This document shows, in pieces, positions 5,860 to 26,077 of a stretch of DNA of 64,000 nt. The DNA is from Eledone cirrhosa. Its lineage: Eukaryota. The position numbers and the translations under genes are program-made. The notes below the pieces were generated by a model. That model was given only the letters and a program-made list of their open reading frames with translations. It made no database searches and was not told where the DNA came from. The stretch lies in contig OZ024761.1 of the NCBI GenBank assembly GCA_964016885.1, positions 15,686,001 to 15,750,000 on the forward strand, read 5' to 3'. How positions within the stretch are numbered: position 1 is the first letter of the stretch; each line of letters opens with the position of its first letter.

Positions 5860-6700
5860 GGGTTAGAGAGAGAGGGGGAGAGAGAGAGGGTTAGAAAGGA
5901 TGATAGTGTGTGTGAGAGGGAGAGGGTTAGTGAGGGTGACAGTAAGAGGGAGAGGGTTAGAGAGAGTGAGTGTGTGTAAGAGAGAGAGGGTTGATTAGAG
6001 AGAGTGCAGTGTGAGAGAGAGAGAGGGAGGGAGTGAGAGAGGGTGGATTAGAAAGAGACTGTGTGATAGAGAGAGGGAGGAGTAGGTTAGAGAGAGTGAC
6101 AGTGTGTAAGTGAGAGAGGGATGATTAGAGAGAGTGACAGTGTGTGAGAGAGGGATGATTAGAGAGAGTGACAGTGAGAGAGGGGGATGATTAGAGAGAG
6201 TGACAGTGAGAGAGGGGGGAGGGGGTTAGAAAAAGACTGTGATAGAGAGAGGGAGTAGGTTAGAGAGTGACAGTGTGTGAGAGAGGGATGATTAAAGAGA
6301 GTGACAGTGAGAGAGAGAGAGAGTGAGAGAGGGTGGATTAGAAAGAGACTGTGTGATAGAGAGAGGGAGTAGGTTAGAGAGAGTGACAGTGTGTAAGTAA
6401 GAGAGGGATGATTAGAGAGAGTGACAGTGTGAGAGAGAGAGAGAGAGAGAGGGTGGATTAGAAAGAGACTGTGTGATAGAGAGAGGGAGGAGTAGGTTAG
6501 AGAGAGTGACAGTGTGTGAAAGGAGAGCAATGATTAGAGAGGGTGACAGTAGAAGAGAAAGACAGAGACGGTGACAGTGTGTGAGAGAGAGAAAGCGAGA
6601 AGGAATGACAGGAAATGAGGGTTTAGAGAGGGTGGCAGTGTGTGAGTGATTAGAAAAGAGAGAGTAGTAGGGGATACAGAGAACAAGGAGCAGCAGTTAG
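5860..6700. repeat. GA-rich compound minisatellite
   Basis: Recurring GATTAGAGAGAGTGACAGTG units with higher-order duplication. Confidence 0.85.
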
Positions 6701-6800
6701 AGGGCAAGAGAGTCAGATAAAAACAACAACAAGCACAACAAAATACAAAAAAATAAAATAAAATAAAACAAAAAAAATCTAATTCTTGCAAATTTCATAC

Positions 6801-6919
6801 CTTTTTGGAAATTCTTAAAATGGTCCACCACAATTTGCTGAAGCTTCTCTAGCTTGGGGTGACCAATAGCATAGGGGAGACTTTGTTGTTGGGTTGACAT
6901 TTGCGTAAATGATATATTT
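6801..6919 (-). CDS. FANCM: FANCM exon 7
   Basis: 119 nt, ...GHPKLEKLQQIVVDHFKNFQK; phases match both neighbouring exons. Confidence 0.92.
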
Positions 6920-7040
6920 CTACAAAACGTGTGAGGGTGAGTGGGAGAGAGAGAGAGAAACAGAGAGATAAATAGATAAATATATAGAACAATATATACA
7001 ATATATTAATAAATGGAAACTATATTTATAAAACCATAAT

Positions 7041-7106
7041 TATTTTATTATATATATTTCAAGGGCAACCAAGGCAAATTTTGGTGCGCTTTCATCAGAT
7101 AAAATA
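7041..7106 (-). ncRNA. Minimal type-I hammerhead ribozyme motif, intact core
   Basis: UAUUUUAU-CUGAUGA-AAGCGCACCAA(AAUUUGCC)UUGGUUGCCCUU-GAAA-UAUAUA-UA-AUAAAAUA: 8-bp helix I, ~10-bp helix II, palindromic helix III, AUA site. Confidence 0.8.
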
Positions 7107-7328
7107 CAAAATTTGTTTTATAAATGTTGACATACCCGAGGAAAAACAACCTTAACGGCTGATGGTTCTTAGAACAATATATATATGTGTGTGTGTAATA
7201 TATATATATATATATATATATAATGAAGGAATTGTGGTAAGGAACCAGATGGACCATAACGCACCAGAGTACTCAATACTTAGGGTAGTAGAGTGGGTAA
7301 TAGGAAAAAGTATGGGGTCATACTTTTT

Positions 7329-7365
<37 letters not shown>

Positions 7366-7404
7366 ATAATAATAAATGTGAAGACTAAAATCCAAAGAGG
7401 GTCA

Positions 7405-7548
7405 ATAGCGGGTTTATCGAGGGAGATCGAAAGAACAAGTCATGAAGACAAACTGACCCAAGTTTGATAAATAAATCTTAAAAAATAAAACTACTGTGTG
7501 ATTTTTTCCTAGACAGTAATCTTGCGAACAAATATCGTCCGCACCCTG
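7405..7548 (+). mobile_element. Terminal fragment of the same Tc1/mariner family
   Basis: Reverse complement of 58802-58945, including the TIR. Confidence 0.85.
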
Positions 7549-7583
7549 AACAAACTTATATATACACATACATATATATACAC

Positions 7584-7646
<63 letters not shown>

Positions 7647-7977
7647 TCATCATCATCATTATCGTTTAACGTCCATCTTCCACTCTAGCATGGGTTAGAC
7701 GGTTTTGTTCCATTTGATGTGGGAATGGTCATGAAACTGTGTCTCACTCACATATATATATATATATATACATATATACATATCATCATCATCATCATCG
7801 TCATCATCGTTTAACGTCTATCTTTCATGCTAGCATGGGTTAGACAGGAATTGTCCCATTTGAGGCAAGATTGGTTGGGTGACCATGTCTTGCTTGTATA
7901 GGACTATCTGGCAGATTTTCTATGGCTGGATGCCCTTCCTAACACCAACCACATTTACAGTGTGGACCATATGTATG

Positions 7978-8030
<53 letters not shown>

Positions 8031-8031
8031 G

Positions 8032-8065
<34 letters not shown>

Positions 8066-8158
8066 ATTTATTTATTTATACACTCACACATTTAAAACAG
8101 AAACCAAGATGTGTCTAGCAGTGAAATATATAAATAGAAGACAAAGAGGATATCTTAC

Positions 8159-15049: not shown

Positions 15050-16365
15050 CCAACTCCAGCTGCTGTGATCAACTTATCGAGTTTCTTGAAGACATCACCC
15101 GGATCACTGATGGCGGCTCATGGGTGGATGTTGTTTACCTTGACTTTGCGAAAGCCTTCAATTCTGTGCCACACAAAAGGCTTATGGCAAAACTCTCTGC
15201 CATGGGTGTGAGGGATGATCTTTTTAACTGGTTGAAGTCCTTCATTCTCAGTCGAAGAGAGGTAGTTACGGTTCTGGGACAGTATTGCTCACCATGAGAT
15301 GTCATCTGGTGTACCACAGAGATCTGTTCTTGGCCCCCTTTTGTTTGTGGCATATATTAATGACATAGATGCCAACTTAAAGAATGACACAGTACTAAAG
15401 TACGCAGATGACATCATGCTGTACCTTGAGATAAAAAGGACAGATCCTGAACACTATAGATCATGCTTGCAGTCTGACCTGGACACAATGTAACAATGGA
15501 TCTCAGACTGGCAACTCAAGCTAGCTGTGGACAAGTGCACCACCATGCATTTTGGGAGTAAAAACCCAGCGTCCACATACTCCCTCCATAGCACTAATAT
15601 CAAGAAGTCTTCTTGTGAACGTGACCTGGGCATTACGGTCAGCAGCGATTTGCGTTGGACGAAGCACGTCTCTAAAATTGTCAAGAGGGCCGAGGGTGTC
15701 TTAGCATCACTCAGCAAGACCTTTGTCAGCCGCTCTCCAGCTATCTATTTGAAGCTGTATATGGCTATGGTGCAGCCACACTTAGAATTTGCATAACCAG
15801 TCTGGAACCCCTATCTTGCTCAGAACATTGACTGCCTGGAAACTGTTCAGAGACGTGCAACCAAGCGAATACCCTCCATCAGGCATCTACCATACTCTGA
15901 GCGCCTTGCTTCCCTGGGCATCGATTCATTGAAGCTCCAACGCCTGGCAACTGACTTGGTAAACACCCACAAAATTGTTAACCATCTTGCCAACAACAAC
16001 CCTGAGTACCTTTTTGATTTCCATGTGTCTAACACACGTGGACATGCCCACAAAGTCAGAAAACAGTACAGTTCCCATGACTTTCGGAAACATTTTTTCA
16101 CACTCAGAGTTGCTGAAGCATGGAACAAACTACCTGTATCAGTTGTTAGCTGTCGAGACACTGCATCCTTTAAGGCCTCCATGCTTCCCGAGGTTCGCCA
16201 ACACTACACCTAATGTTCCCCCTCCATACACATACACACATGTATACCATGACTCATACACTATTCACTTCCCTGACATTTGTGTATTATTCTATGTACT
16301 ATACATGCACCTTTGACGAGTTATAGTGCACCTGAGCACTTTACACAATAATTTCATTATTATTA
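15050..16365 (+). mobile_element. CR1-clade LINE, 5'-truncated
   Basis: VDVVYLDFAKAFNSVPHKRL, SGVPQRSVLGPLLF, YADD, ERDLGI, TRGH; 3' stem-loop and (ATT)n tail. Confidence 0.92.
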
Positions 16366-25864: not shown

Positions 25865-26075
25865 GATACTCCCTGGCGAGGAATGCACCTCCCAACATAA
25901 CCTAGTAGTCAACGACCTCATTGTCAGAGCTAGCCAAACTTGGAAACAGAAAGCAACCTGGAGGGGAAATATTTAGAAGTTGAAAGAGCCCTTAGCCAGT
26001 AACAGATTTAGAGATATTCTGCTTGGCACCTATGACAGTAAAGAAGAACATATAGAGACATTCAATATAGAAAAG
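25865..26075 (+). mobile_element. RTE endonuclease/linker fragment
   Basis: IPGEECTSQHNLVVND-like translation followed by KLKEPLASNRFRD. Confidence 0.65.
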
Positions 26076-26077
26076 CA

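What the first reader, a model, noticed from the sequence alone, without database searches (positions are those of the whole stretch)
7041..7106. Intact-core hammerhead in sense orientation inside FANCM intron 6, ~120 nt upstream of the exon 7 acceptor
Seen: canonical core (CUGAUGA, GAAA, AUA site), perfect 8-bp helix I, ~10-bp helix II and palindromic AUAUAUAU helix III, on the same strand as FANCM pre-mRNA. Inference: it could cleave nascent FANCM transcripts or influence splicing. Minimal hammerheads usually need dimerisation, so monomer activity may be low.
Basis: partly seen in the sequence, partly recalled or inferred. Interest (0 to 1): 0.75.

Follow-up and report, generated by a model that had tools for sequence, protein, structure and literature searches.

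The report
Penelope transposon tail in FANCM intron
The hammerhead ribozyme shape in this FANCM intron is real, but it is the tail end of a young jumping gene with thousands of copies in the same genome, and a lone copy is predicted to be unable to cut the gene's RNA, so it is most likely an ordinary passenger.

Summary
The motif is there as described: a type I hammerhead on the minus strand, sense to FANCM, in intron 6, with its cleavage site 129 nt upstream of the exon 7 acceptor. It is not a FANCM feature. It lies in a 171-bp insertion (7169-6999) flanked by a 14-bp direct repeat. A 25-mer from it has 5,387 exact matches in the genome, and the same kind of core has 53,922 (one per ~56 kb). 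Longer copies show that the insertion is a 5'-truncated pseudo-LTR of a Penelope-like retroelement. Its RT/GIY-YIG protein carries Hydra-clade motifs. The intronic copy equals the family majority over 140 nt. Folding predicts essentially no helix III in the monomer and a competing hairpin over the cleavage site; no compatible same-strand partner was found in 114 kb. No cleavage, RNA or orthologous-site data were obtained. The scan noted the same class elsewhere in this genome (e1-8664257). Ordinary; low interest.

The parts
6999..7169 (-). 5'-truncated solo pseudo-LTR of a Hydra-type Penelope-like element (171 bp, short 3' end, no tail)
   Evidence: 95.5% over 178 nt to the 3' pLTR of full-length locus L061; shared 3' end in related copies
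7170..7183 (-). 14-bp direct repeat, upstream copy; likely target-site duplication, in a (TA)n tract
   Evidence: the 14-mer occurs exactly twice in the window, on each side of the insertion
6985..6998 (-). 14-bp direct repeat, downstream copy; likely target-site duplication
   Evidence: 11 of 11 Watson-Crick pairs with 7034-7024; pair probability 0.86-1.0 in 7130-7018
7107..7114 (-). internal loop of helix I, 5' strand; with 7115 it is complementary over 9 nt to 7083-7075 (possible pseudoknot)
   Evidence: duplex -5.7 kcal/mol; weak comparative support
7099..7106 (-). helix Ia, 5' arm
   Evidence: 8 of 8 pairs; covariation across families
7092..7098 (-). catalytic core CUGAUGA
   Evidence: sequence
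7061..7091 (-). helix II and loop II (10 pairs, one mismatch, one bulge)
   Evidence: pair probabilities 0.5-1.0
7049..7060 (-). GAAA, palindromic helix III (7057-7050) and H17; predicted cleavage 7049/7048
   Evidence: sequence; monomer helix III probability 0.0, self-duplex -3.2 kcal/mol
7041..7048 (-). helix Ia, 3' arm
7024..7034 (-). distal helix Ib, 3' arm
7000..7058 (-). predicted competing hairpin that pairs helix III and the cleavage site with the element's own 3' end
   Evidence: minimum-energy and centroid folds of 7169-6999; U16.1 sequestered with probability 0.74-0.81
6920..8158 (-). FANCM intron 6 (1,239 nt, GT...AG), the host
   Evidence: splice sites and reading frame continuous from exon 6 to exon 7
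6801..6919 (-). FANCM exon 7 (119 nt)

Best explanation
This is a 171-bp, 5'-truncated copy of the hammerhead-bearing pseudo-LTR of a Penelope-like retrotransposon with Hydra-clade protein motifs, likely inserted by reverse transcription into a TA-rich site of FANCM intron 6 and predicted to be silent there as a lone monomer. In the parent element the ribozyme sits in both pLTRs around an RT plus GIY-YIG ORF (shown, L061). Two copies in one tandem transcript would pair their AUAUAUAU palindromes into an 8-bp helix III and could then cleave (inferred from published dimer work). Insertion would start at one of two fixed points about 90 nt apart, giving copies with or without a tail (ends shown, mechanism inferred). 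The intronic copy began at the short point and stopped after 171 nt. Its sense orientation and nearness to exon 7 are what one motif per 56 kb gives by chance.
For: 42 places 100% identical over 96 nt among 50 matches from 40 scored of 902 candidates. 5,387 exact 25-mer matches, control 0, split 2,734/2,653 by strand. 53,922 core matches versus 46. L061 is pLTR(2560-2967), ORF from 3014, 3' UTR, pLTR(6655-6970). GIY-YIG by Pfam, E 1.2e-5. RWR, DKT, YRDD, CxCX5C, CxxC and CxH motifs match the Hydra definition (PMC8557442 section 11). 14-bp flanking duplication. Of 39 copies, 17 have the tail and 22 do not; 8 of 10 multi-copy loci pair one of each, the PLE signature in PMC8557442 and PMC11167929. 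Positions 7138-6999 equal the majority of 19 copies picked on another part. The constrained active monomer has probability 1.6e-4. One Schistosoma PLE motif showed no monomer cleavage (PMC4209133), and the Anolis one needed protein (PMC11167929).
Against: No cleavage assay and no RNA data: silence is predicted only, and ViennaRNA ignores tertiary contacts, Mg2+ and co-transcriptional folding. The core is intact, and long helices I and II with a possible loop pairing could support more activity than minimal PLE motifs. The competing hairpin is not family-wide: sister copies L082 and L094 fold helix Ia with probability about 0.9. An empty site was not seen, so age and polymorphism are inferred from identity. 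Clade assignment rests on motifs and reading by eye, with no tree; Pfam found no RT domain in the four RT-region fragments. The end of FANCM was not located, so the partner scan may not cover the whole gene.
Confidence: 0.9

Rival explanations
1. The insertion is a transposon copy but does cut some nascent FANCM RNA, by pairing its palindrome in trans with one of the many related hammerhead RNAs or with help from the element's protein, as an unselected side effect.
For: Intact core; 53,922 motifs carry the AUAUAUAU or AUAUGUAU palindrome; protein-assisted cleavage is reported for the Anolis element (PMC11167929).
Against: The duplex is only -3.2 kcal/mol. The site is predicted to be sequestered in context. 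The same paper found no RNA reads ending at the cleavage site. Dimers of PLE motifs cleave poorly in vitro (PMC4209133).
Confidence: 0.07
2. A domesticated intronic ribozyme that regulates FANCM splicing, like the amniote RECK hammerhead.
For: Sense orientation, 129 nt from the acceptor of a 1.2-kb intron; precedents in amniote introns (PMC6155905 passages).
Against: Identical to a young, high-copy family with no host-specific change. The flanking duplication is still perfect. It lacks a stable helix III. Runs of other organisms laid only on the repeats, not on the FANCM exon, so conservation is untested.
Confidence: 0.02
3. A monomer of a non-autonomous retrozyme (tandem, circular-RNA type) rather than a truncated pLTR of an autonomous element.
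For: Type I hammerhead with short palindromic helix III; many copies begin near one 5' point; other retrozyme-like families were noted in this genome by earlier agents.
Against: The same sequence flanks an RT/GIY-YIG ORF in L061 and adjoins ORF pieces in other loci. No head-to-tail array of short units was seen in the 30 loci.
Confidence: 0.01

Closest known systems
Hydra clade of Penelope-like elements, including Hydra-1_Obim (Craig et al. 2021, PMC8557442; passages, section 11 and supplement rows read)
   Same: RT followed by C-terminal GIY-YIG; DKT, CxCX5C linker, CxxC and CxH motifs; (TA)n targets; hammerhead near the 3' end; clear likeness by eye to the printed Hydra alignments
   Different: A different family from Hydra-1_Obim, which is listed with no pLTR and a 4-bp helix III. 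RWR instead of RWK; unit about 4.1 kb against generally under 3 kb; tail about 90 nt against 30-40 bp. The listed Hydra hammerheads have 3-4 bp helix III and mostly 3-7 bp helices I and II.
Metazoan PLE hammerheads with short palindromic helix III (Cervera and de la Pena 2014, PMC4209133, parts 1-2 of 4 read; Lunse et al. known only through the review PMC6765202)
   Same: Type I fold in pLTRs, palindromic 15.2-16.2 region, dimer requirement, most copies dispersed as single truncated motifs
   Different: Helix I is 8+11 bp rather than 4-5 bp, there is no extra base before helix II, and 10.1-11.1 is A-U rather than G-C
Poseidon element of Anolis (PAc; Frangieh et al. 2024, PMC11167929, parts 1-2 of 4 read)
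   Same: Two fixed 3' ends defining a tail, AT-rich targets, inserted copies spanning an uncleaved hammerhead
   Different: Other clade; there the ORF starts inside the hammerhead, here about 240 nt downstream of it
Conserved intronic hammerheads of amniotes such as RECK and C10orf118 (passages of PMC6155905, PMC3088659, PMC10761166)
   Same: Type I hammerhead in an intron, extended helix I, possible helix I to loop II contact
   Different: Those are conserved across species and cleave as single motifs; this is one of thousands of young copies and lacks a stable helix III

Membership tests
Type I hammerhead ribozyme | Core CUGANGA, GAAA and NUH in order, with helix I open-ended | tested here: met
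Type I hammerhead ribozyme | Helices I and II supported by covariation | tested here: met
   32 cluster representatives: position 1.1 is U-A in 24, C-G in 5, U-G in 1, unpaired in 2; first six pairs 89% paired versus 79% permuted; clusters are related, so this is not a probability
Type I hammerhead ribozyme | Stable helix III in the monomer | tested here: not met
   predicted pair probability 0.0; an 8-bp helix forms only between two copies
Type I hammerhead ribozyme | Self-cleavage at the predicted site | not testable with these tools
   needs an assay; no RNA holder listed
Type I hammerhead ribozyme | Tertiary contact between helix I and loop II | tested here: inconclusive
   8-9 bp possible in 6 of 32 representatives (one of them competing with its own helix II); permutation p 0.04 on related sequences
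Type I hammerhead ribozyme | Match to an Rfam hammerhead model | tested here: not met
   no hammerhead family at gathering score or up to E 10
Penelope-like element | pLTRs flanking one RT plus GIY-YIG ORF | tested here: met
   L061; this ORF is broken, and no intact ORF was seen in the 20 long loci
Penelope-like element | 5' truncation, inverted pairs and optional tail | tested here: met
Penelope-like element | Hammerhead inside the pLTR | tested here: met
   both pLTRs of L061
Hydra clade | DKT motif, CxCX5C linker, CxxC and CxH around the conserved E and N | tested here: met
   against section 11
Hydra clade | RWK motif | tested here: inconclusive
   RWR, a conservative change, in L061, L063, L071 and L077
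Hydra clade | Absence of the CCHH motif in the endonuclease | not tested
   no alignment with reference endonucleases was made
Hydra clade | Insertion into (TA)n | tested here: met
   flanks
Hydra clade | Placement in the clade by RT phylogeny | not tested
   reference proteins were only readable in the supplement
Non-LTR retrozyme | Tandem non-coding units, each with a hammerhead | tested here: not met
   solo copy; the family flanks a coding ORF; definition from bioRxiv 10.64898/2026.07.22.740005, part 1 of 5
Domesticated intronic hammerhead (RECK type) | Conserved at the orthologous intron across species | tested here: inconclusive
   contigs of other organisms covered only the repeats
Domesticated intronic hammerhead (RECK type) | Distinct from a currently abundant mobile family | tested here: not met

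The most novel reading that the evidence does not exclude
This genome carries over 50,000 hammerheads with the same self-complementary helix III. Any two could complete each other in trans, so transposon transcripts would switch on cleavage in host introns such as this one, aided in this branch by a Watson-Crick pairing between the helix I internal loop and loop II that appears as A-U, G.U and G-C in sister subfamilies.
Probability: 0.06. Interest if true: 0.7.

Novelty: new member of a known kind. Interest (0 to 1): 0.15.

Why it matters
As a FANCM finding it matters little: at one motif per 56 kb many large genes in this genome will hold one. As a family it is a modest addition: a young Hydra-type element with clear pLTRs and a 90-nt tail. 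The number of copies makes one open point cheap to test, namely whether PLE hammerheads cut RNA in vivo. If they do, sense copies should be depleted from introns relative to antisense ones.

Tried and rejected
Rfam gave no hammerhead match. Sequencing runs: no RNA holder listed. Laying 8 of the 22 listed runs showed only repeat-derived cover and no joint across the insertion, so nothing on an empty allele or on orthologues. PDB sequence search with the 647-aa related ORF found nothing. Pfam found no RT domain in the ORF fragments. The ORF beside the copy in L015 has its own different terminal repeat and was set aside as a neighbouring element. Naiad was rejected because the endonuclease here is C-terminal. 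The pseudoknot as a general feature was rejected: absent in most clusters. Lower divergence in parts of the ribozyme (about 1-4% versus 4-7% elsewhere, 19 copies, 8 of 30 loci dropped beforehand as self or duplicates) is not read as selection, because helix II and GAAA/III were as variable as the flanks and the 3' stretch outside the ribozyme was as conserved. The Lunse et al. paper was not held. Literature searches: hammerhead+Octopus+Penelope returned only PMC8557442; FANCM+ribozyme returned 8 listings, none on this subject by title and abstract start. Earlier-finding look-ups by sequence and by relatives were empty.

Full report
Observation. On the minus strand the sequence reads as a type I hammerhead: helix Ia 7106-7099 with 7048-7041 (8 A-U pairs), CUGAUGA 7098-7092, helix II 7091-7061, GAAA 7060-7057, the palindrome AUAUAUAU 7057-7050 and cleavage at 7049/7048. 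The host gene is FANCM. Seven exons can be counted down to 6919, so the motif is in intron 6 (8158-6920), sense, with the cut 129 nt before the acceptor. It missed that helix I continues after an 8x6-nt internal loop into an 11-bp helix (7125-7115 with 7034-7024). Its proposed construct 7030-7120 keeps only part of that helix (mean pair probability 0.25 against about 1).

It is a repeat. A genome search with 96 nt gave 902 candidates; of the 50 matches from the 40 scored, 42 were 100% identical over the whole length. A 25-mer pattern has 5,387 exact matches against 0 for the control. The looser pattern of core, 15-45 nt and GAAAUAURUAUA has 53,922 against 46, one per about 56 kb. The window copy runs from 7169 to 6999 and is flanked by a 14-bp direct repeat that occurs only there in the window. 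Positions 7138-6999 equal the majority of 19 copies that were chosen on a different part of the element.

What repeat. Copies share 3' ends at two points about 90 nt apart and vary at the 5' end. Of 39 copies, 17 have the extra tail and 22 do not; 8 of 10 loci with several copies pair one of each, one of the 8 mixing two subfamilies. Searching with the longer 5' part and fetching 20 long stretches gave L061: terminal repeat 2560-2967, ORF from 3014, a long AT-rich 3' region, terminal repeat 6655-6970. [quoted passage not shown] These fit the Hydra clade of Penelope-like elements as defined in PMC8557442 section 11, which reports canonical hammerheads and (TA)n targets. Its supplement lists Hydra-1_Obim, homologous by eye but with another hammerhead. 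No tree was built. That the host is an octopod is taken from those notes and was not established here.

How it likely works. The architecture and the ends are shown; the following steps are inferred. The element's protein would nick TA-rich DNA and start reverse transcription at one of two internal points in the pLTR, as shown in vitro for the Anolis element, where uncleaved RNA was the main template and the hammerhead cut only with protein present (PMC11167929). A short-start event that stopped after 171 nt gives the FANCM copy. In the parent, two pLTRs in one transcript could pair their palindromes into an 8-bp helix III (-3.2 kcal/mol), the dimer mode described in PMC4209133 and the review PMC6765202. 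The G variant of the palindrome, common in the family, keeps pairing through G.U.

Activity in the intron. The monomer with helices Ia, II and III has a computed probability of 1.6e-4. With the element's own 3' end included, a hairpin from 7058 to 7000 covers helix III and the cleavage site (probability 0.74-0.81), and helix Ia falls to 0.08 or less. This holds for the close copies tested, but not for the sister subfamily L082/L094, where helix Ia stays near 0.9. In the window plus 50 kb downstream, five motifs passed the scan; the two others on the minus strand have different palindromes. The cut would lie upstream of the polypyrimidine tract and a branch-like CUCAC, leaving the 3' splice signals intact (sequence); that slow intronic cuts often do not block splicing is recalled and comes from no call. 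None of this is a measurement: no RNA run was listed, and the laid runs said nothing on an empty allele or orthologues.

Structure across families. In 54 distinct copies forming 32 clusters, helix I covaries (U-A to C-G at the first two positions in 5 clusters) and helix II keeps pairing next to the core. The internal loop of helix I is complementary over 9 nt to loop II in this subfamily, and one position reads A-U, G.U or G-C in sister subfamilies. But 8-9 pairs are possible in only 6 of 32 representatives and the permutation p of 0.04 ignores relatedness. Such pseudoknots are known in about 40% of hammerheads (PMC3088659 passages), so even if real this is a known device.

Verdict. A real hammerhead motif, explained as a passenger fragment of a young Penelope-like element. 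New member of a known kind, interest 0.15. The bold reading, trans-activated cleavage of host introns by tens of thousands of compatible motifs, is not excluded but has no support here (probability 0.06). Supplementary figures of PMC4209133 and PMC11167929 were not looked at, and the preprint's supplements are closed; they may list closer hammerhead relatives.

Noticed in passing
window 53828(-) and 53934(+): Inverted pair of another hammerhead family with palindrome AUGAUCAU, the same two-armed Penelope layout; the + copy has lost its helix I 5' arm.
   Followed up: partly
L133 7520(-) and 7655(+); L135 9021(+): Further hammerheads within 50 kb downstream: an inverted pair with palindrome AUGCGCAU and a sister-subfamily copy. 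Different palindromes might keep families from cross-pairing.
   Followed up: partly
L001 1319-1460, L030, L061 2560-2690: The longer pLTR has an ATTTGCAT octamer and a PSE-like stretch (likeness recalled) just upstream of the point where many copies begin; it may be the element's promoter.
   Followed up: no
L015 60-1416: A different Penelope-like fragment (RT end, Cys linker, GIY-YIG) with inverted terminal repeats, next to an inverted pair of this family.
   Followed up: partly
window 7204-7314 and 7400-7550: Two more high-copy repeats in the same 1.2-kb intron; not identified.
   Followed up: no
G000 C1:217.3-217.7 Mb and C3:74.3-74.6 Mb: Clusters of near-identical long copies at spacings of 50-140 kb, suggesting segmental duplication.
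   Followed up: no
window 15266-16210 and 26042-26962: Two similar LINE-type reverse transcriptase fragments, the first inside FANCM intron 1 on the opposite strand (type recalled).
   Followed up: no
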